Part shown: positions 6,240 to 63,904 of the stretch, piece by piece | Numbering within the stretch: position 1 is the first letter of the stretch | Layout: each line of letters begins with the position of its first letter | Assembly: GCA_044892525.1 (NCBI GenBank) | Contig: CM097885.1 | Location: 29,018,001 to 29,082,000, forward strand | Reading direction: 5' to 3' | From: Schmidtea polychroa | Taxonomy: Eukaryota | DNA length: 64,000 nucleotides | Position numbers and translations under genes: made by a program | Notes under the pieces: model-generated | Databases searched by the model: none | Seen by the model: only the letters and a program-made list of their open reading frames with translations | What the model was told of the DNA's origin: nothing

Positions 6240-6850
6240 TTAAAACATTCAACACACAAGTATTCACTGCATTCTGCACATTGATTTTAGGATTAAAAGT
6301 TCTAATCAATAATGCTTCACATATCACACGCTCAAAACAATTATCAAATTTTTTGATAAGATTTTAAAATCAGACATTCCTAATTCTCTCATACAGACTT
6401 TATTGTGATCCTTAATATTGGACACTCCCTTCAGTCGACAGTGTTCTTGAACTCGAGTACAGAGATGACGGGAAGTCTCTCCAATGTATGTGGCATTACA
6501 CCCATTACATGTGAATTGATAAACGAGATCCGAACACAATCCAACCGGCGTTTGAGATTTACTAACAAACATACTACGTACTTTGCACGATTTTGAAACA
6601 CTTCTATAATTCAATGTACCCAGCTGTTTGTTTACCAATCTTTCTTTTGAAATCTTTATATCCTTCAGAATACGGCAATACCATCGTATATTTGGCTCAT
6701 CTTGTTTGTTAGTATCAATACTCATATTCACTACATCATTCGACATATCATTCAATTTACATTCATTCATTATACGATCCTTAGCATTATTCATACATTT
6801 ATCAACAGTCTCTTTCAACGTTTATGCTGAAAGTTGAAAAATTGAATTAT
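6240..6850 (-). mobile_element. Penelope-like retroelement 3' fragment (GIY-YIG endonuclease)
   Basis: ORF 6324-6818 contains LVYQFTCNGCNATYIGETSRHLCTRVQEH. A frameshifted continuation CEALLIRTFNPKIN is typical of PLE C-termini. Confidence 0.85.
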
Positions 6851-11633: not shown

Positions 11634-13595
11634 TTAGACATATTTATAATATTCTTCTGAATCGTCTTTTGGTGGCTTCTTTCTTCCAATATTGGCGAAA
11701 AACGGATTAAGTTTAATATTAGGCACTTGTTTAAATGATTCTTCCATTTTGGAAGTTTTCTGATAGAGAATGGCTAATGCCCGCTTTGAAATTCTTCTAT
11801 CAAGATTAGCAGGTAGCACATCATTACCATCGGTTTGTGTATTCGACAGTTCATACACTTTTTCAATTTCCTTATTTACTGCATCCGCACGGAAATCCTC
11901 CAACATATAATCAACAGTTGACATGTTATAAAATTCGAATCTATTATTTCGTAAATTTGGTTTCAATTTCCGCAGAAATGATTTACCCATTTCTGTATTA
12001 TTGCCGCATGAATATGCAAGATAAAGCCGTAAGTCAATTGCTTTAAAGGTTTCGATAAGTTTAGATTCATATGTTTCTGGGTCTCTTTGTAAAATTGGAA
12101 GAATAAATAAAGTGTTAACATTGAAAAGGAATTCATAAAACGAATGCCGACCCTTCAAGTCAACGATGGATTCGATTGTTGCCAAAAGATGCGTCAAAAT
12201 TGTTTCATTGATTTGATCAATCAAACTTAATCCGTCTTCTTCAGAGATTTTTATTTGGAGAATCTTTACTAACGGGCCAATAGTTATACCCTGAAAGACT
12301 ACTGTAAACAATATAATGAATATTGTGGCATTCATAATAGATGTTTTGTCAACTCCATTATTATTGTTTAAAAGAACGGCTAAACAATATGATATGCCAC
12401 CTCTCATTCCACCGTACGCAATGATATATTGTTCCGTCCAATAAATTTCTCTTACAGCCAATTCATAGCGATTTATAAAGGCCGACAGTAAAAATGTGAT
12501 AATGAATCTCACATAAATACATAAAAATAAAGCCCAAAGAGAAAATGATGAATTCCATTCAAAATCGTCTATCTCGAAAAGTGTTACGCCAAGGCACAAA
12601 AAAATGATTGATTCACTGAGGTTTGCAAGTATTTTTATAACTCTTTTAATAACAATTAAAGATTTGTGGGTGATATTGTGAAAATTATAAGCGACTTGAA
12701 TTAAACCAAACATTATCATACTTATAATAACCGACCACCCTAACACGTCGGCAACTAAATATGCAACCATACTCATTCCGAAAACAATTATTGGTTCAGA
12801 TAGCGGAGCTTTATACGAAAATCTCGAAATGATACAAGTAATCGCACTGAACATAAATCCAGTGAACCCACCTCCAATAACTACAGCGAGAAATGAAATA
12901 CAACTTTTAAAGTAGTGCATTCCTCGCCATTCTTCAACAGCGGCCAATTGTCTGAGGACATTATACAAGACGACTGCCACTCCGTCATTCAATAAGGATT
13001 CCCCAAACACCAAATAATAAAGATTATTATCCACATGGATTTCTTGAAAGATTGCCAAAACGGCAACGGGATCAATGGAGGTTATTAACGAGCAGAAAAT
13101 TAAAATTGATATCTCATTAATGGAGTTTTCCATTACTCCAATGATCAGCAAAATCCATAAAAAGAGCGAAAGGAAAATAAAATTCAAGACGGTTGCAATA
13201 ATTGCAAATATCAACACAGGAAGAATGTTTGCCATAAAATCCACATGGTACATGGCGAAAGCGGATTCCAAAACGATTGGTGGAAGCAGTAAATACATAA
13301 AAGCGTAAGAATTTATGGAAAATAAATTTGGATCGGTTCTGGTAGCTTTTAATATATATCCAAAAAATATTCCCAGAAACAATAAAAGACTCGATTCGGG
13401 AAGATAATGAGAATATTTATGACACCAGAAGTAGCCTAATTTTATTATGGTTACAACTATAAGAAAGAGAATAATACTAAGTAATGAGCGTATGGTAGTG
13501 TAGTGGAAACCAATGATGATGATGAGATTAGTTGTATCATTCAGTTTCCCACCGTGATGACCTGATAAATATAAAATAAATAATATATATTTCAT
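11634..13595 (-). CDS. Sodium/hydrogen exchanger (SLC9A/NHE, CPA1 family), intronless, 653 aa
   Basis: Uninterrupted ORF with about 12 hydrophobic segments and the NHE motifs YLLLPPIV, IDPVAVLAIF, VFGESLLNDGVAVVLY, AYGGMRG and FQGITI, followed by a cytoplasmic tail. Confidence 0.95.
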   Translation of the reverse strand: MKYILFILYLSGHHGGKLNDTTNLIIIIGFHYTTIRSLLSIILFLIVVTIIKLGYFWCHKYSHYLPESSLLLFLGIFFGYILKATRTDPNLFSINSYAFMYLLLPPIVLESAFAMYHVDFMANILPVLIFAIIATVLNFIFLSLFLWILLIIGVMENSINEISILIFCSLITSIDPVAVLAIFQEIHVDNNLYYLVFGESLLNDGVAVVLYNVLRQLAAVEEWRGMHYFKSCISFLAVVIGGGFTGFMFSAITCIISRFSYKAPLSEPIIVFGMSMVAYLVADVLGWSVIISMIMFGLIQVAYNFHNITHKSLIVIKRVIKILANLSESIIFLCLGVTLFEIDDFEWNSSFSLWALFLCIYVRFIITFLLSAFINRYELAVREIYWTEQYIIAYGGMRGGISYCLAVLLNNNNGVDKTSIMNATIFIILFTVVFQGITIGPLVKILQIKISEEDGLSLIDQINETILTHLLATIESIVDLKGRHSFYEFLFNVNTLFILPILQRDPETYESKLIETFKAIDLRLYLAYSCGNNTEMGKSFLRKLKPNLRNNRFEFYNMSTVDYMLEDFRADAVNKEIEKVYELSNTQTDGNDVLPANLDRRISKRALAILYQKTSKMEESFKQVPNIKLNPFFANIGRKKPPKDDSEEYYKYV

Positions 13596-13889
13596 ATTTC
13601 AATTATATTATTTCCTACCTTAAACCCTTTCACTCCCACGGTTAGGTATACTTTTACGATTAATAACATTTAAACAAGTAAATAATTGGAATTGCAGGGT
13701 TTTTATTATTGTAAAACATAGAAATATTCATAAAACATGATATATATTCACTATAACAATGGAAACTATTTTGTTGTAAAAAAATATTTTAAAATAAAAA
13801 TATTGTAGCCAATCTAAGGCAAAAATGTTGATTATAAATCTGACACCTCGTGTTCAATATATAAGAATCAACACATTCAGATTATATTA

Positions 13890-30779: not shown

Positions 30780-33293
30780 CACTCATACCTCGCTATACGG
30801 CTGCTCTTTATACGGCTTTTCGCTATAACGGCCTACTTTAATTACGGCACTTTTTCGATTTACGGCCTAAAATGTTTCGTTATACGGCCAAAAAAAGTGT
30901 GAAAAAAGGTGCGAAAAAAAACATGAATGTACATATTTTCAAAATGAAATTTTATTAATTTGAGTACAATGAATGTACATATTTTCTTGTTTATGTATTC
31001 TTAAAAGTAGAAGTGTTTATTCTTGTTTGGTAAATCTTGTTTGTTTATTTTTTATTACTATTTATATAAAGTGGAAAATTGGAATCTTTTGGAAACATTT
31101 CTGGTATGTATTGTATTAAAAAGTCTTTAATAAATATTTCCTTTATAAAACTTAATTTATAAATTCTTTTAAATATATATATAAATATATATATATATGT
31201 ATGTAATCCTTTTTTAAGACAAAATGCCACCGAAGCGTTCATCGAATTTGGAAACTGGTAAAATTATAAAGCGAAGCCGAAAATCTGTCACGCTAGGGAC
31301 TAAACTAGAAGTTTTACGTCGTATTGAAGCTGGTGAGAAAATTGTTCAAATTTGTAAGTCAGTTGGATTGGCGAAGTCTACCGTTCAAACTATTCGTGAT
31401 AAAAAAGAAAAAATTAAAGCACATTCGCAATCTGCTGCACCTTTAAGTGTCTCAAAATTAACTCGCCAAAGAAGTTGCATTATGGAAAAAATGGAAAAAT
31501 TATTGGGTATTTGGATTGAAGACAATAATCAACGGAGGATGCCAATGAGCCAAATGACTATCCAAGAAAAGGCTAAACATATTTTCGAGAATTTGAAGAG
31601 TGGGGATACCGATGAATCTATGGAAGATGTAACATTCCAAGCAAGCCGAGGTTGGTTTGAAAAATTTAAAAACCGGCACAATTTGCACAATTTAAAAATG
31701 AAAGGTGAAGCCGCTAGTGCCGATGATGACGCAGCTAAAGAATATCCCAACATTTTGAAAAAAAATATTGAAAGAGGTGGGTACCGACCCGAGCAAGTTT
31801 TCAATGTAGACGAAACAGGACTCTATTGGAAGCGAATGCCTGAACGCACGTACATTTCAAAAAACGAAAAGTCTGCATCTGGCTATAAGGTATCAAAAGA
31901 AAGATTAACTTTGCTCCTTGGTGCAAATGCTGCGGCCACGTTTAAACTAAAACCAATTTTAGTATATCTTTCAGAAAATCCGAGACCTTTTAAAGGGCTG
32001 GATAAGAAACAGTTGCCCGTCATTTGGAGATCCAACAAGAAAGCTTAGATGACTAAGATTCTTTTTGAAAACTGGTTCAAAAATTACTTTTGTCCAGAAG
32101 TAAAAAAATATTTGCGAGACGTTAACTTTAGCAACAAGGCTTTGCTAATTTTGGATAATGCTCCAGGACATCCGGTTAATTTATGCGAATTATCTGAAGA
32201 TGTGGAGATTGAGTATCTTCCAAAAAATACAACAGCTCTAATCCAGCCAATGGATCAAGGTGCAATAGCCACTTTTAAGGCATATTATTTACGTAGAACA
32301 TTTCGAAAACTTATAAACGTAACTGATGGTGAATCTTCGATTAAACAATTTTGGAAAAACTACAACATTAAAGATGCTGTAGTCAACATTAGCGAATCGT
32401 GGAAGGAATTGAAATCAACCACAATGAACCATGTTTGGAAAAAAATGTGGCCAGAATGCATAAAAACTGAAGATCCTGAAGTTGATTCTCTTTCTGAAAT
32501 AAGACAAAGCATATTGCACCAAGCGAATGATCTTGGTTTTGAGGATTTGGAAGAAGGTGATGTGTTTGATTTGCTAAATGCTGATAGAGAACCCCTTTCA
32601 CACGAGGAACTCGTCTATATTGAAGAGGACCGATCACTTGATGAGGAGCCAGAGCCTGATGTATGTAAACAGCTAACCTTAAAGAACTTGTCCAGTGCGT
32701 CTTCTCATTTCGAACAAGGAATAAAAATCCTTCTTCAAAGTGATCCAAACGTAGAACGCAGCGCTAACGTTTTTCGCGGAATTAACTCAGTGATTAACTG
32801 TTATGTTGAACTGCAAAAAGAAGCAAGAACCAAGGCAAGACAAACAACGTTGGATAAATTTCTTAAAAAATCATCTATATCTACAACAGCGGAAAATGAT
32901 GATGACATTATATTGCAGCTTACATATTCTTCATGTTCGTCTTCAGATTAGAACTCTGTCTTTAAAAATTTTAATTTATGTATTTTATTATGTATCAATT
33001 TATTAATTTCGATTTTATTAATGAATTTGTTTTTGTTTTTTTTTATTTCAGTTTATTGTTATATATAATATGTACTTGTTATTTATTTTTATTTTATATG
33101 TAAGCATTTTTAAATGAAATAAAAAGAAAAAAATGCATTTTAAACTAAAAACTACGTTATTTTATAAAAAATTGGAACCAATCCTATTGAATTTATATGG
33201 AATTGAATCAAAATATTTGATTCGTTATGCGGCGTTTCGCTTTGCGGCCAACTTTCCTGGAACGTATCTAGGCCGTAAAGCGAGGTATGAGTG
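30780..33293 (+). mobile_element. Full-length Tigger/pogo DNA transposon (2514 bp)
   Basis: 22-bp TIRs cactcatacctcgctatacggc / gccgtaaagcgaggtatgagtg (1 mismatch), TA on both sides, inserted in a (TAA)n tract. Confidence 0.97.
31224..32951 (+). pseudogene. Tigger DD32D transposase with a single in-frame stop (TAG 32046-32048)
   Basis: CENP-B-type HTH, FQASRGWF, FNVDETG, LILDNAPGH...QPMDQG and a C-terminal QTTLDKF PIP-like box. The stop replaces the Trp of the conserved KAWMT. Confidence 0.92.
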
Positions 33294-37773: not shown

Positions 37774-37939
37774 TATTAAAAAAGACAGTTTGAATACTAT
37801 AAATCAGTAATATATTGATGTTTTTTGATACCAACGAATTTTCAGCACTGCCTTTTTCAAGTGAATGAAGGTAAAATTGAAGGCAAAAACTCAATGGAAA
37901 AAATAATCAGTGAAGAAATTGGAAAAAAAAGTTCTTTTA
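37774..37939. mobile_element. Short retroposed insertion (repeat family H1) with internal inversion and 12-bp TSD
   Basis: TTGCTAGAAAGC is duplicated at 37762-37773 and 37940-37951. Removing the insert restores the transposase reading FNLLESIYTFF. Confidence 0.75.
37832..37864 (-). ncRNA. Minimal type I hammerhead-ribozyme-like motif (family H1)
   Basis: Minus strand UCAC-UUGAAAA-A-GGC-AGU-GCU-GAA-AAUU-C-GUUG; stem I partly mismatched. Confidence 0.55.
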
Positions 37940-40060: not shown

Positions 40061-40479
40061 CTCTAGAATATATTAATTTTGACGATATAATTGATAAGTT
40101 TGCAGATATGAGTGCGAGGAAAATGAACTTTTAACTTTTTAGGAAATACTCGTTTATTTTTACCGTAAAACACTAATTAATACAATATTCATAATATGTA
40201 TATTTCAATTTTATTTCCTAATATGCGCGACATACTTGTAACGGCAATATTAAGATTTATTGTTTTCTATATTAAAAACTATTTTTATTGTGCTTTTTAA
40301 TTTTTATGTATTTTTATGCAATAAATTCCTATTTTTTTTAATTAAGAAATTTTAATTCTAATTATCCTCAGCCCCATAAAGCCCGGAGATAAAAAATATG
40401 TTTAAGGACCCACAAAAGGTCTTTTCGGACCCTGTAAATTTCTCTACTTAATAATTCTCTACTTATACGCGTTTACAGT

Positions 40480-42066
40480 TTTTAAGAATGAGGAATGATT
40501 GAAAGTTTGCATCATTAGTTCGAATACTAAGTATGAATTCTGATAAAGATTTCAATAAATATGTTCCTTTTTGTAAGTTACATTCTTTGCTTTGTAACGA
40601 TTTATTGGTGGCATTGATTCTTTGCAATAGCGTATTCCAAAAAATCAATAACAGAGCCGTCTCTAAATCTTCAAAACTGCTATGTAATTTTTTCGCCTCA
40701 ATTTTCGCTATGGGTTTTTCAGATGGGTTAATACAAATTTCACCAAGAACAGTTTTTATGGAAGAAAAATTCATTCTTACAGTTAATACAGCTTCAGCTC
40801 TAGATGACCATCGAGTGTCGCATATACGTTTTAAAGTATGGCTTAATGTTTGATCAGTATTCATTAGCTGATCCCATCTCTTTGTCGAAGAGGAAAAAAA
40901 AACAAACAAATTTTGAATAAAATCAAAGAATCTAATAGCTTTAGAAGAACATTCTGCTGCTGTATTTCCAACTAAATTTAAAGAGTGTCCTGCGCAAGGT
41001 ACAAATTCAGCATTTTTGCTGTAACATTTAATTTTGGCTTGGAGACCGTTATAAATGCCTGACATGTTCGCAGCATTATCATACGTTTGTCCCCGGAAAT
41101 TATTAATGTTTAACCCTAATTCTGACAAGGCGGACAAAATCGTTTTTTCTAAATATGTTGCATCATGATATTCAATCGAAATAAAACATATGAACCTTTC
41201 TTGAATTTTTTGATCCAGATCTACGTACCTGATAATAATAGTTAACTGGTCAGTATGGCTTGCATCAGGCGTGGAATCAACTATAAGAGCAAAATAGTTA
41301 GCTTGTTTTATTTCATCAACAATGGATTTTTGTACGGTTTTGCCCATAAGTTCTATAAATTCATCACACGTACTTTTAGATAAATAATTAACATGCCCAC
41401 TTCCGCAATTACTGTATTTTTCTAAGTGAACCTAAGTGAACAAAATTCAAACAATAAATGAAATGAAATTGCATATGCATTTTCTGTTTTGGAAAAGAAA
41501 TATACAAAATACAAATACAAATTCAAAGCTTGCTTGGTTGTTGTTTTTTCCTATTTGAATTTTTATATTTCTATTTTGTGTATCATATAATTTTATTTTG
41601 TATTTAAAGGCCTACTAATTTTATTTTGTAAATAAAAAGTTTAAAATCTGAAATGCTACGGACTATTGATTTTTTTGTTATTTTTTTTTTAATTTTTCAG
41701 AGTTTAAAACCTATTCGTGGGGCCTCAAATTCAATTTATAAAATAAAATTAGTAGGCCTTTACAAAATAAAATATATTATATTCAAAATATAAAAATTCA
41801 AACCTTGCTTGGATTTTGCTTTTATCCTATTTGTTATTTTTTCCTTTTTGAATATGTGCAAATTCTTTTACTTATAGAAATTGAGGCTCCAAAAGGTTTT
41901 AACTCTGAAAATTTTAAAACTGTTAAAGTTTAAAATCTGAAATGCTACGACTTTGTTTTTTTTTTTTTTTTTAAAAATTATAATTTTTTTTTTGGATTTT
42001 GTAGGCTCTTATAAATCCGAGGCCCTAGGCAAATGCCTAATCTGCCTACAAATAAATACGCCGCTA
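40480..42066 (-). mobile_element. Truncated ZMYM1-type hAT element with an open 294-aa transposase segment (ORF 40463-41347)
   Basis: FALIVDSTPDASHTDQL, RGQTYDNAANMSG, CAGHSLNL and CDTRWSSR motifs; GC-rich terminus ...aatacgccgcta at ~42066. Confidence 0.88.
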
Positions 42067-42179
42067 TTTATTGTCTATATTAGACTTTTAATAAATACAA
42101 TGGAAAAGAAATCAATAGTGAAATTTGAAAAAAAAGTTCTTATAATATTAATAATTGTTTCAAAAAATATCGTTTTAAT

Positions 42180-45020: not shown

Positions 45021-45163
45021 TATAAGAACTTCTTTCGATTTTCACATATGATTTCTTTTCAATCGGCATTGAATTTATAAATAAATCGATTATGAACCAA
45101 TAATGATATCGATGTATTTGTGATATTCACGAATTTTCGGCACTGCCTTTTTCAAAATGATTT
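45021..45163 (-). ncRNA. Repeat family H1 copy with hammerhead-like motif at 45127-45160
   Basis: Minus strand UCAUU-UUGAAAA-A-GGC-AGU-GCC-GAA-AAUU-C-GUGA; about 140 bp shared with 54601-54742. Confidence 0.6.
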
Positions 45164-53589: not shown

Positions 53590-53606
53590 TTATTATTATT
53601 ATTAGT

Positions 53607-53766
53607 ATAAAGTGATAATTTAAGCCTTTTGCTGTGAATAATGTATTTAATGAAAAAATTTTAGACTATAAGATAGTCCTTGTCAATCTCCTGGGACTAC
53701 CTTATAGTCGAAAATTTTTTCATTAAATACATTATTTGCAGCAAAAGACTTAAATTATCACTTTAT
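53607..53766. repeat. Long inverted repeat (~73-bp arms, ~14-nt spacer) of repeat family H2 within (ATT)n
   Basis: Arm 53607-53679 is the reverse complement of 53694-53766 with about 5 mismatches; a single-arm copy lies at 58228-58320. Confidence 0.9.
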
Positions 53767-53768
53767 TG

Positions 53769-53898
<130 letters not shown>

Positions 53899-54527: not shown

Positions 54528-54600
<73 letters not shown>

Positions 54601-54603
<3 letters not shown>

Positions 54604-54742
54604 GAACTTTTTTTCCAATTTCACCACTTATTTTTTTTCCATTGAATTTATTAAAAAGTGCTTAAAGACTATGAATCAGTGATGATATCGATGTTTTTGA
54701 TACTCACGAATTTTCGACACTGTATTTTTCCAAGTGATTTTC
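54601..54742 (-). repeat. Repeat family H1 copy with degenerate hammerhead-like motif (54704-54737)
   Basis: Matches 45021-45163; 3' end abuts (AAT)n on the minus strand. Confidence 0.6.
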
Positions 54743-57700: not shown

Positions 57701-58108
57701 TGACCTTTTGATAAACTAATTTAAGTGATATAAGTATTAAATTGATTTTTGATCCGATTTTAGCGTGCACAGTTGTGATTCATAAAGTTTGGTTCAGTTC
57801 TTCCAATCAATTGTGCTTGGTCTACTATTTACAGAGAAAATGTCGATGGCACTCACAATCAACAAATTTCTATATCGATGTCATCGTTTTAAATATATTT
57901 GTAATTTTAATAAAATCATAGCTTTGAAAATAATTATTTTAATAAAATTCAATTTTTAATTTTCAGAAAATTTTAATATCTTATTTTTTGAAATCTGATT
58001 AAATGTTAAATTGAACATAAATAAAATAACAAAAATCTATGTTTAAAAACAATGTAAATACTGTCATAAAAATTTATATTAATTGAAAATTATAGACCAA
58101 ATAATAAT

Positions 58109-58187
<79 letters not shown>

Positions 58188-58278
58188 GTATAAAATGATG
58201 ATTGCTTGGTAGCAGCATTTATTATTTAAAACAATAAAATGATAATTTAATCCTTTTGCTGCAAATAATGTATTTAAT

Positions 58279-58317
58279 GAAAGAATTTTCGACTATACGA
58301 TAGTCCTTGTCAATCTC
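58279..58317 (-). ncRNA. Minimal type I hammerhead-ribozyme-like motif (family H2)
   Basis: Minus strand GAGA-UUGACAA-G-GACUAU-CGU-AUAGUC-GAA-AAUU-C-UUUC: perfect 6-bp stem II and a 4-bp stem I with one G-U pair. Confidence 0.65.
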
Positions 58318-58321
58318 CTTG

Positions 58322-58729
<408 letters not shown>

Positions 58730-59338
58730 AACTTTAAAAATATAATAATTTTATTTTTAAATTTAGCCAAAATTAAATTTTCTCTAGCAGTTATTGGCAT
58801 TAAATTATTTGATTGTTGTGTAAAACTATATAATTTGTGTATTTTATCATTCTCTTTAGTAAATCTTTGCTGTCCATAATTTTCTATTATTGTTAAACCA
58901 GTTAATTCATATAACCAGTTAATTCATCAATTTATTATTTACCCTGATGGACCATGAAGTGAAGGTAATTTTACTGAACTTAGATCCATTACAACTTCAA
59001 TGTTATCTTACTTCCATAAACGACTGAAAGATTCAATAATTGTATTTGTAAAATAAATTATAATATGGAAAGTAATAAAAACAACATTCAATAGATTTCT
59101 TCGGTTAAATTTTACAAGTTTTCAATTAATTTAAATTTTTTTATTTATTTAAACAACATACATATAGAAAACATATTTATTATTCCTATGCCTATTTATC
59201 AATGAGTTGACACTAAAAGTATGTCGATAATTCTTTACTGATTCTAGACGGATTATTAAAAAGATTAATTAAGCATAATAATAATAATAATTATAATAAT
59301 TATAATAAGCATAATAATAATAATTATAATTATTATTA

Positions 59339-63099: not shown

Positions 63100-63159
63100 T
63101 ATGAATCAGTAAAGATATCGATGTTTTTTGATATTCACCAATTTTCGGCACTGCCTTTT
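63100..63159 (-). repeat. Repeat family H1 copy, truncated within the hammerhead-like core
   Basis: atgaatcagt...gatatcgatg...aattttcggcactgcctttt matches the other H1 copies; the UUG part of the core is missing. Confidence 0.6.
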
Positions 63160-63904
63160 ATATATAATGATGATGATGATTTTGAAATTATAATTAAAGA
63201 ATAAAGTGAAATGAAAAGAAATAAAAAACTGAAATTTCGTATTTTTGTATTTTTGCACCAAACCGCTATTTTTAGGATTTTGTAATCTAATATTAATGCA
63301 ATAAAATATTTAAATATCAATTGAAAATATTTATTTAAATAAATATCTATTTCTCATTTAGTTTTTACACATAATATTAATAAATTTGATAAATGAAATG
63401 TAAAATATTTTTGCATGCTTGATTTAATAAAAAAATAAATAATTTTTGTTTGAATATTATTCAAATGTCTAAATAAAACAAAATTTAAATTACGAATTAG
63501 GAATTATTATTTTATTTGAAATTATAATTTTATTTTACCCTTAAAAAGTATCTTAAATTTCAATTTCTGAAAAAAACTAAATTTCACACTTGGAATAAAA
63601 ATTTGAAAATTTTGAAAAATTTGAGTTTTTTTAGTTGGATTTTATCAAGATATCTCAGCAATATTATTTCTATTTGACATTTCATTTCCTTTTTGATAGT
63701 AGTTTCCGAAACAATGAAAATAATTATTATATTATTTCATATATTATTTATTTATTATTTGATATTTTCTAGGTGGACATTTGTTAAAATTTGAATAATT
63801 TATGCAGAAATAGTGGTTCACATTAATTAGTAAAACTTCTTTAAAGATTTTTTGAGTTTTATATCATTCTTCGTCAAAGAACACGCAGAAAATTTATGTT
63901 AAAT

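What the first reader, a model, noticed from the sequence alone, without database searches (positions are those of the whole stretch)
58279..58317. Second, independent hammerhead-like family (H2) with the same U3/A8 core and AAUU palindrome
Seen: GAGA-UUGACAA-G-GACUAU-CGU-AUAGUC-GAA-AAUU-C-UUUC. Stems I and II differ completely from H1 yet still pair, while UUGANAA-N, GAA and AAUUC are shared. Inference: this covariation is the strongest internal evidence that both motifs are real ribozyme folds. This copy looks intact and is the best one to assay.
Basis: partly seen in the sequence, partly recalled or inferred. Interest (0 to 1): 0.7.

Follow-up and report, generated by a model that had tools for sequence, protein, structure and literature searches.

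The report
Penelope retroelement end with minimal hammerhead
The 39 bases are the tiny hammerhead-ribozyme motif at the end of a young, abundant Penelope-type jumping gene, a known arrangement that likely cuts RNA only as a protein-helped pair; the one less familiar detail is that most short copies stop right at the motif's front edge.

Summary
The motif is present exactly as written, on the minus strand (58317→58279). Its 31-nt core has 1,498 exact copies in the genome against 0 for the reversed control. It lies in the terminal repeat (pLTR) of a young Penelope-like element (PLE) with an 856-aa reverse transcriptase + GIY-YIG ORF: about 410 nt after the stop codon and, in tandem junctions, 64 nt before the ATG. 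The window copy is a 133-nt 5'-truncated end (ribozyme, leader, first ~10 codons as 'tail') between (AAT)n arrays. H1 belongs to a second PLE family. The U3-A8 core, the extra base before stem II and the palindromic stem III are all published for PLE minimal hammerheads (PMC4209133). Diverged sisters of H2 carry C3-G8, which is better covariation than H1 versus H2. Cleavage is untested; 97 of 100 sampled copies span the cut site, so uncut RNA is the template. Less familiar: 57 of 100 sampled 5' ends fall 19-37 nt upstream of the cut site and none at 38-49, and H1 behaves alike. This suggests a transcription start or a reverse-transcription stop at the ribozyme's edge. Verdict: new member of a known kind.

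The parts
58187..58319 (-). 5'-truncated 3' end (pLTR + tail) of a young Penelope-like element, 133 nt; from -37 to +96 relative to the predicted cut
   Evidence: One mismatch to the natural tandem junction of L092 over the element; family structure
58279..58317 (-). Minimal type I hammerhead motif H2 (stem I 4 bp, U3-A8 core, extra G, stem II 6 bp, AAUU palindrome, C17)
   Evidence: 1,498 exact copies of the 31-nt core
58283..58283 (-). C17; predicted cleavage on its 3' side (inferred from hammerhead numbering, untested)
   Evidence: numbering as in PMC4209133
58219..58282 (-). 64-nt leader between the predicted cut and the ATG; contains the first 3'-end (reverse-transcription start) cluster at about +56 to +64
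58187..58218 (-). 'Tail': first ~10 codons of the RT-endonuclease ORF (MLLPSNHHFI), ending at the second 3'-end cluster (+92 to +97)
58100..58187 (.). (AAT)n array at the 3' junction (likely target)
58322..58730 (.). (AAT)n array at the 5' junction
53604..53772 (-). Second, older H2-family insertion: head-to-head pair of short arms; the sense arm (motif 53652-53690) has G12 changed, U17 and a different loop II base; flanked by (AAT)n

Best explanation
The motif is the minimal hammerhead sequence in the terminal repeat of a young Penelope-like retrotransposon, and it likely self-cleaves slowly, only when two copies pair and probably with help from the element's protein. Shown: it lies ~410 nt after the stop of an 856-aa RT + GIY-YIG ORF and 64 nt before the ATG in tandem junctions; the window copy is a 133-nt truncated end in (AAT)n; copies have two 3'-end clusters (about +56-64 and +92-97) and head-to-head pairs carry the tail on one arm; 97 of 100 sampled copies span the predicted cut site. 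Inferred: AAUU of two copies pairs to form helix III; cutting after C17 separates units of read-through RNA and leaves an ORF RNA with a 64-nt leader; integration uses uncut RNA, the endonuclease nicking ATT/AAT-rich DNA and reverse transcription starting inside the RNA near the ORF start, as shown in vitro for the anole element. The isolated window copy is most likely an inert by-product.
For: PLE ORF with RVT_1 (E 2e-14) and GIY-YIG (E 1e-5); DKG, Cys linker and CCHH motifs. 150 of 150 scored matches to the C-terminal 172 aa are 99-100% identical and several have 856-aa open frames. Motif precedes the ATG by 64 nt in 5 of the 7 long copies whose ORF start was printed (11 examined). 19 of 20 head-to-head pairs have the tail on exactly one arm. 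Sister lineages: U-A in 4 and C-G in 3 of 7 aligned motifs at pair 3-8, stem II 95% paired, slid controls 39-58% versus 88%; L042 is a clear homologue (101 of 142 columns identical through the ORF start) with C3-G8. H1 lies 325 nt after a second PLE endonuclease (E 4e-19 to a profile of relatives). Published PLE minimal hammerheads have the same U3-A8 variant, extra base, G10.1-C11.1 pair and palindrome (PMC4209133); protein-assisted cleavage and uncut template in PMC11167929.
Against: No cleavage data. No genomic footprint of cutting: 30 of 30 loci chosen on the motif alone continue past C17, and only 3 of 100 5' ends map at the cut, all with T-rich microhomology. The ViennaRNA dimer minimum (-18.1 kcal/mol) is a misfold; the active dimer scores -4.8 to -8.8. 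Stem I is only 4 bp and is broken in 2 of the 7 aligned relatives; shuffle control for covariation is modest (11-44 of 500). The three C3-G8 rows were picked by a pattern demanding CUGANGA; among 27 genome matches with C3, 24 have A8 (single changes or junction artefacts in young copies) and 3 have G8, two of them near-identical duplicates. An abundant older subfamily has U17. Rfam does not recognise the motif.
Confidence: 0.85

Rival explanations
1. The motif is a vestigial or non-catalytic hammerhead-shaped signal: it is kept as a binding or folding site for the element's protein (or as promoter/leader sequence) and does not cut in vivo.
For: 97 of 100 copies derive from uncut RNA; predicted dimer misfolds; in the anole element ribozyme mutants did not affect insertion in vitro and no RNA-seq reads ended at the cut (PMC11167929); Naiad PLEs spread without canonical hammerheads (PMC8557442).
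Against: Catalytic positions (U4 G5 A6, A9, A13 A14 A15.1, U16.1) are invariant across 7 aligned relatives and the 3-8 pair switches as a pair; related PLE motifs do cut in vitro.
Confidence: 0.1
2. The 133-nt unit is a non-autonomous element of its own (retrozyme- or SINE-like) that is transcribed and re-copied, rather than a truncation product of the autonomous element.
For: 52 of 80 sampled insertion loci reach no further than -37; short copies far outnumber ORF-start copies (5,145 anchor matches versus 50).
Against: Short copies have heterogeneous 5' ends and fold-back junctions, match the autonomous element base for base, and are dispersed singles or head-to-head pairs; no head-to-tail arrays of the unit among the 100 sampled, unlike retrozymes.
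Confidence: 0.04
3. Chance resemblance inside an AT-rich repeat.
For: Folding z-score -0.24; loose core patterns also hit unrelated coding repeats (L051, L054, L057).
Against: Those false hits lack the stems; two unrelated-sequence PLE families have the complete motif at the same position; 0 of 200 shuffles.
Confidence: 0.01

Closest known systems
Minimal hammerheads (min-HHR) of metazoan PLEs, incl. the U3-A8 variant of Schistosoma mansoni Cercyon elements (Cervera and de la Pena 2014, PMC4209133; read: main text parts 1-2 of 4, supplement PDF parts 2-3 of 3 and passages)
   Same: Type I, short helix I, longer helix II, unpaired base between 9 and 10.1, G10.1-C11.1, palindromic 15.2-16.2 with no loop 3, U3-A8 core, located in pLTR, mostly single truncated copies or close opposite-strand pairs; a Schmidtea mediterranea PLE motif is listed.
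   Different: Sequence of stems differs from the listed motifs (the S. mediterranea entry is C3-G8 with another stem II); here U3-A8 motifs dominate (6,718 pattern hits versus 253 for a C3-G8 pattern; the patterns are not strictly equivalent) and the family is young and homogeneous.
PAc, Poseidon element of Anolis carolinensis (Frangieh et al. 2024, PMC11167929; read: parts 1-2 of 4)
   Same: RT + C-terminal GIY-YIG; ATT-rich targets; two internal 3'-end sites 30-40 nt apart that define the tail; uncut RNA as template.
   Different: In PAc the ORF starts inside the ribozyme and the core is C3-G8; here the ATG is 64 nt after the cut and the protein has a Cys-containing linker.
Neptune / Nematis clades of EN+ PLEs (Craig et al. 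2021, PMC8557442; passages)
   Same: C-terminal endonuclease, DKG, CCHH, Cys motif in the RT-EN linker, microsatellite targets, inverted 5'-truncated arm, tail at one end.
   Different: Linker reads C-x4-C-x6-C (x5-7 in relatives), not the textbook CX2-5CxxC; clade not assigned (no reference PLE proteins available for a tree).
Adineta vaga Penelope pLTRs (Arkhipova et al. 2013, PMC3846280; passages) and Drosophila virilis Penelope (Schostak et al. 2008, PMC2377424; passages)
   Same: pLTRs of defined length with palindromes at the 5' junction, solo pLTRs, proposed self-priming; internal promoter within the pLTR.
   Different: In the passages seen, the 5' boundary is not related to the hammerhead; in D. 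virilis it is the intron end that maps to helix I (PMC4209133).
Metazoan non-LTR retrozymes (PMC7229834, search listing only; bioRxiv 10.64898/2026.07.22.740005, passages)
   Same: Short hammerhead-bearing sequence derived from PLE ends.
   Different: No head-to-tail arrays seen; minimal rather than canonical hammerhead; directly part of an autonomous element.

Membership tests
PLE minimal type I hammerhead | Core boxes CUGANGA (or U3-A8 variant UUGANAA) and GAAA..UH | tested here: met
   UUGACAA, GAAA-A-U-U-C
PLE minimal type I hammerhead | Helix II closed by G10.1-C11.1 with one unpaired base after A9 | tested here: met
   6-bp stem, G-C in 7 of 7 relatives, extra G
PLE minimal type I hammerhead | Helix I of 3-5 bp | tested here: met
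   4 bp with one G-U; 75% of cells paired across 7 relatives
PLE minimal type I hammerhead | Palindromic helix III segment allowing dimer | tested here: met
   AAUU in H2 and H1, AUAU in two C3-G8 families
PLE minimal type I hammerhead | Location in the pLTR of a PLE | tested here: met
PLE minimal type I hammerhead | Site-specific self-cleavage | not testable with these tools
   No raw RNA reads offered; genomic copies show no ends at the cut
Rfam hammerhead families | Score against Rfam covariance models | tested here: not met
   No hammerhead match up to E 10 in the window
EN+ Penelope-like element | Single ORF with RT and C-terminal GIY-YIG carrying CCHH; DKG motif | tested here: met
   856-aa ORF, Pfam RVT_1 above cut-off and GIY-YIG above cut-off
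EN+ Penelope-like element | Partial-tandem pLTR, inverted 5'-truncated arm, 30-40 bp tail at one end | tested here: met
   tail on exactly one arm in 19 of 20 pairs
Neptune / Nematis clade | CX2-5CxxC linker and placement in an RT tree | tested here: inconclusive
   Cys linker present but spaced C-x4-C-x6-C; no tree built
Non-LTR retrozyme | Head-to-tail tandem repeats of a non-coding unit with canonical hammerhead | tested here: not met
   Singles and head-to-head pairs only among 100 sampled arms

The most novel reading that the evidence does not exclude
The ribozyme fold itself sets where most insertions end: after the reverse transcriptase has copied through the hammerhead, refolding of the RNA (and hairpin formation in the new DNA) releases or folds back the cDNA at the last base that can pair in helix I, so the hammerhead acts as a built-in stop and strand-turning signal rather than mainly as a cutter. 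Basis: 57 of 100 H2 5' ends lie at -19 to -37 and none at -38 to -49; 23 of 30 H1 ends lie at -37 or closer with 8 at -33; in both families the edge is 2 nt outside helix I. The competing reading is a transcription start at that C|A step, with reverse transcription starting ~130 nt downstream and running off the RNA end.
Probability: 0.3. Interest if true: 0.55.

Novelty: new member of a known kind. Interest (0 to 1): 0.22.

Why it matters
As a ribozyme it is ordinary: PLE minimal hammerheads with this exact variant core were described in 2014. Its value is as material. The family is young, has intact ORFs and thousands of near-identical ends, so it lets one read PLE insertion steps from the genome: two reverse-transcription start clusters, a tail on one arm, and a sharp pile-up of 5' ends at the ribozyme's front edge in two families. 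What the hammerhead does for endonuclease-containing PLEs is stated to be unclear (PMC8557442); the pile-up gives a simple test between a transcription start and a structure-dependent stop.

Tried and rejected
Rfam scan: no hammerhead match. Folding z-scores uninformative. RNA evidence: no RNA holder listed; contigs of runs guessed to be RNA cover the region but cannot show ends (two runs laid nothing). Splice acceptor at the helix I edge (the sequence there reads like a 3' splice site and D. virilis has an intron ending at helix I): no copy among the fetched loci joins an upstream element exon or a shared leader to -35, no such joint in contigs (tables were cut), and H1 has no AG at its edge; set aside. 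Cleavage footprint: 5' ends of ORF-containing long copies are scattered (+73 to beyond -1400; 0 of 11 at -30 to -37, one at about -40, one at -7), so neither the cut nor -37 is their fixed start; this counts against a simple transcription-start model. Three C3-G8 pattern families (L051-53, L054, L057) lack stems and look like coding sequence of other repeats; two others (L047-50, L055-56) have stem II and a palindrome but poor stem I and were not resolved. Ends called at -120 to -157 (H2) and -43/-44 (H1, 7 of 30) are where older subfamilies or the reference diverge, not true ends. No covariance model was built; the genome search does not take relatives here. Lunse et al. 2017 (dimer cleavage of small PLE hammerheads) is not held; I saw only its citation and a review's summary. 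Searches for papers on U3-A8 activity found only PMC4209133; that U3-A8 cores can be active is recalled, not read. Searches for a published 5'-end pile-up at the hammerhead found none, but Lunse 2017, supplement file 1 of PMC4209133 and bioRxiv supplements were not seen and may bear on it. Host taxon was not tested.

Full report
Observation. It parses as a type I minimal hammerhead: 4-bp stem I, UUGACAA, one extra G, 6-bp stem II with a 3-nt loop, GAA, AAUU, C17. It is the only site in the window that fits a minimal descriptor, against 0 hits in 200 shuffles (descriptor written afterwards). Rfam does not see it and its folding energy is not unusual.

What it belongs to. The 31-nt core occurs 1,498 times exactly in the 781-Mb genome, reversed control 0. 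In the first 30 loci it is followed by the same 50-95 nt and then usually (AAT)n or (ATT)n, and most are preceded by a shared AT-rich 3' UTR. Longer loci hold an RT + GIY-YIG ORF; one has an open 856-aa frame with Pfam RVT_1 and GIY-YIG, DKG, a C-x4-C-x6-C linker and CCHH. It has 254 unnamed relatives at E<=1e-20, best 41% identical. All 150 scored matches to its C-terminal part are 99-100% identical, so the family is young. The motif lies about 410 nt after the stop and, where units are in partial tandem, the predicted cut is 64 nt before the ATG. The window copy (58187-58319) matches such a junction with one mismatch: ribozyme, leader and first ten codons, between two (AAT)n arrays. This is the pLTR-plus-tail end of an endonuclease-containing Penelope-like element.

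H1. H1 (core with a 3-bp stem II and 6-bp stem I) lies 325 nt after a broken PLE endonuclease in L187, 40% identical over 57 aa to the H2 element and E 4e-19 to a profile of its relatives. So H1 and H2 are two PLE families, not independent inventions. A generic U3-A8 pattern has 6,718 matches against 9, the first 100 being almost all H1 or H2; a C3-G8 pattern has 253 against 55.

Covariation. Seven H2-like motifs were aligned: pair 3-8 is U-A in 4 and C-G in 3, stem II is 95% paired with one double change, stem I 75%; slid controls pair 39-58% against 88%; shuffle controls are reached 11-44 times in 500 for four measures and 407 for the fifth. L042 is homologous to H2 through the ORF start (101 of 142 columns) and has C3-G8. 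Caveats: the C3-G8 rows were found by a pattern that demands that core; among 27 matches with C3, 24 keep A8 and look like single changes or junctions in young copies, 3 have G8; 29 matches have U3 with a base other than A at 8, against 3,561 intact core 24-mers. Decay after insertion is neutral, so only differences between lineages test selection.

Insertion anatomy. For the first 100 of 5,145 matches to an anchor 3' of the cut (all 100 fetched), 3' ends form two clusters, +49 to +65 (56 arms) and +87 to +102 (44 arms). In 19 of 20 head-to-head pairs exactly one arm has the tail. This matches the published tail and the two internal reverse-transcription starts of the anole element (PMC11167929; PMC8557442). 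97 of 100 arms extend 5' across the predicted cut, and 30 of 30 loci selected on the motif alone continue 3' of it: integrated copies come from uncut (or re-ligated) RNA.

5' ends. Of the 100 arms, 10 end at -18 to 0, 18 at -29 to -19, 39 at -37 to -30, none at -49 to -38, and 33 run further. By locus, 52 of 80 reach no further than -37 (three pairs of loci look like segmental duplicates; ends are uncertain by 1-3 nt through microhomology; the anchor needed an A/T 74 nt away). Genome-wide, a 24-mer covering -8 to -31 has 3,561 matches and one covering -22 to -45 has 1,801. In H1, 23 of the first 30 matches end at -37 or closer, 8 at -33 (30 of 1,784). In both families the edge is 2 nt outside helix I and at a C|A step. 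The window copy ends at exactly -37. Two readings remain: a transcription start at the edge with run-off of a ~130-nt cDNA (about 45%; D. virilis Penelope has an internal promoter, PMC2377424), or release and fold-back of the cDNA once the ribozyme has been copied (about 35-40%; some junctions are perfect hairpins on stem II). Against the first, 0 of 11 long ORF-containing copies start at -30 to -37 and 8 extend further (first 30 of 50 matches examined). A splice-acceptor reading found no support.

Mechanism. Shown: structure, position, copy anatomy, uncut template. Inferred from PMC4209133 and PMC11167929: AAUU of two copies forms helix III; cleavage is slow and probably protein-assisted (the naked dimer is predicted to misfold); it likely trims read-through RNA to an ORF RNA with a 64-nt leader. 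The solitary window copy has no intact partner nearby (the copy at 53652-53690 has G12 changed) and is probably inert.

Comparison and verdict. Cervera and de la Pena 2014 describe the U3-A8 variant (about 1,300 hits in S. mansoni), the unpaired base, the palindrome, solitary copies and close opposite-strand pairs, and list a Schmidtea PLE motif. All sequence-level membership tests are met; cleavage is untested. Earlier scan notes on this genome reach the same filing and call the host a planarian; I did not test the host. The pile-up of 5' ends at helix I was not found in the papers searched, though defined-length pLTRs with 5' palindromes are described (PMC3846280). New member of a known kind; interest 0.22.

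Noticed in passing
window 45088-45156, 37774-37866, 54570-54741, 63100-63196 (all minus); 42086-42155: Decayed copies of the H1 PLE end, several beside (TA)n or (AAT)n; 42086-42155 is a tail-only piece.
   Followed up: partly
window 6324-6821 (minus): Relic of a third PLE endonuclease (GIY-YIG with CxxC), 45% identical over 56 aa to the H2 element; no hammerhead found in the 1.1 kb downstream.
   Followed up: partly
window 11634-13598 (minus): Intronless 654-aa frame that reads like a Na+/H+ exchanger (label from recall, not searched).
   Followed up: no
window 31218-32951 (+) and 40463-41431 (minus): DNA-transposase-like frames (Tigger/pogo-like with one in-frame stop; hAT-like); labels from recall.
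   Followed up: no
L047-L050, L055-L056: Further C3-G8 hammerhead-like families with AUAU palindrome and U17; L050 has a PLE endonuclease fragment ~380 nt upstream; stem I pairs poorly in the expected register.
   Followed up: partly
L141, L050, L058/L133, L128: H1 and H2 (or other PLE) ends often sit adjacent or joined, e.g. an H2 end fused to an inverted H1 end in L141, suggesting shared AT-rich targets or nested insertion.
   Followed up: no
L039:2650-3480: Intronless Rab1-like GTPase frame (label from recall) lying between two H2 ends 6.9 kb apart in the same orientation; possibly a retrocopy or captured host sequence.
   Followed up: no
L004:1501 and 1516; L092:2312 and 2327: An abundant older H2 subfamily has U17 and a different loop II base, commoner than the young type in contigs of two runs.
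   Followed up: partly
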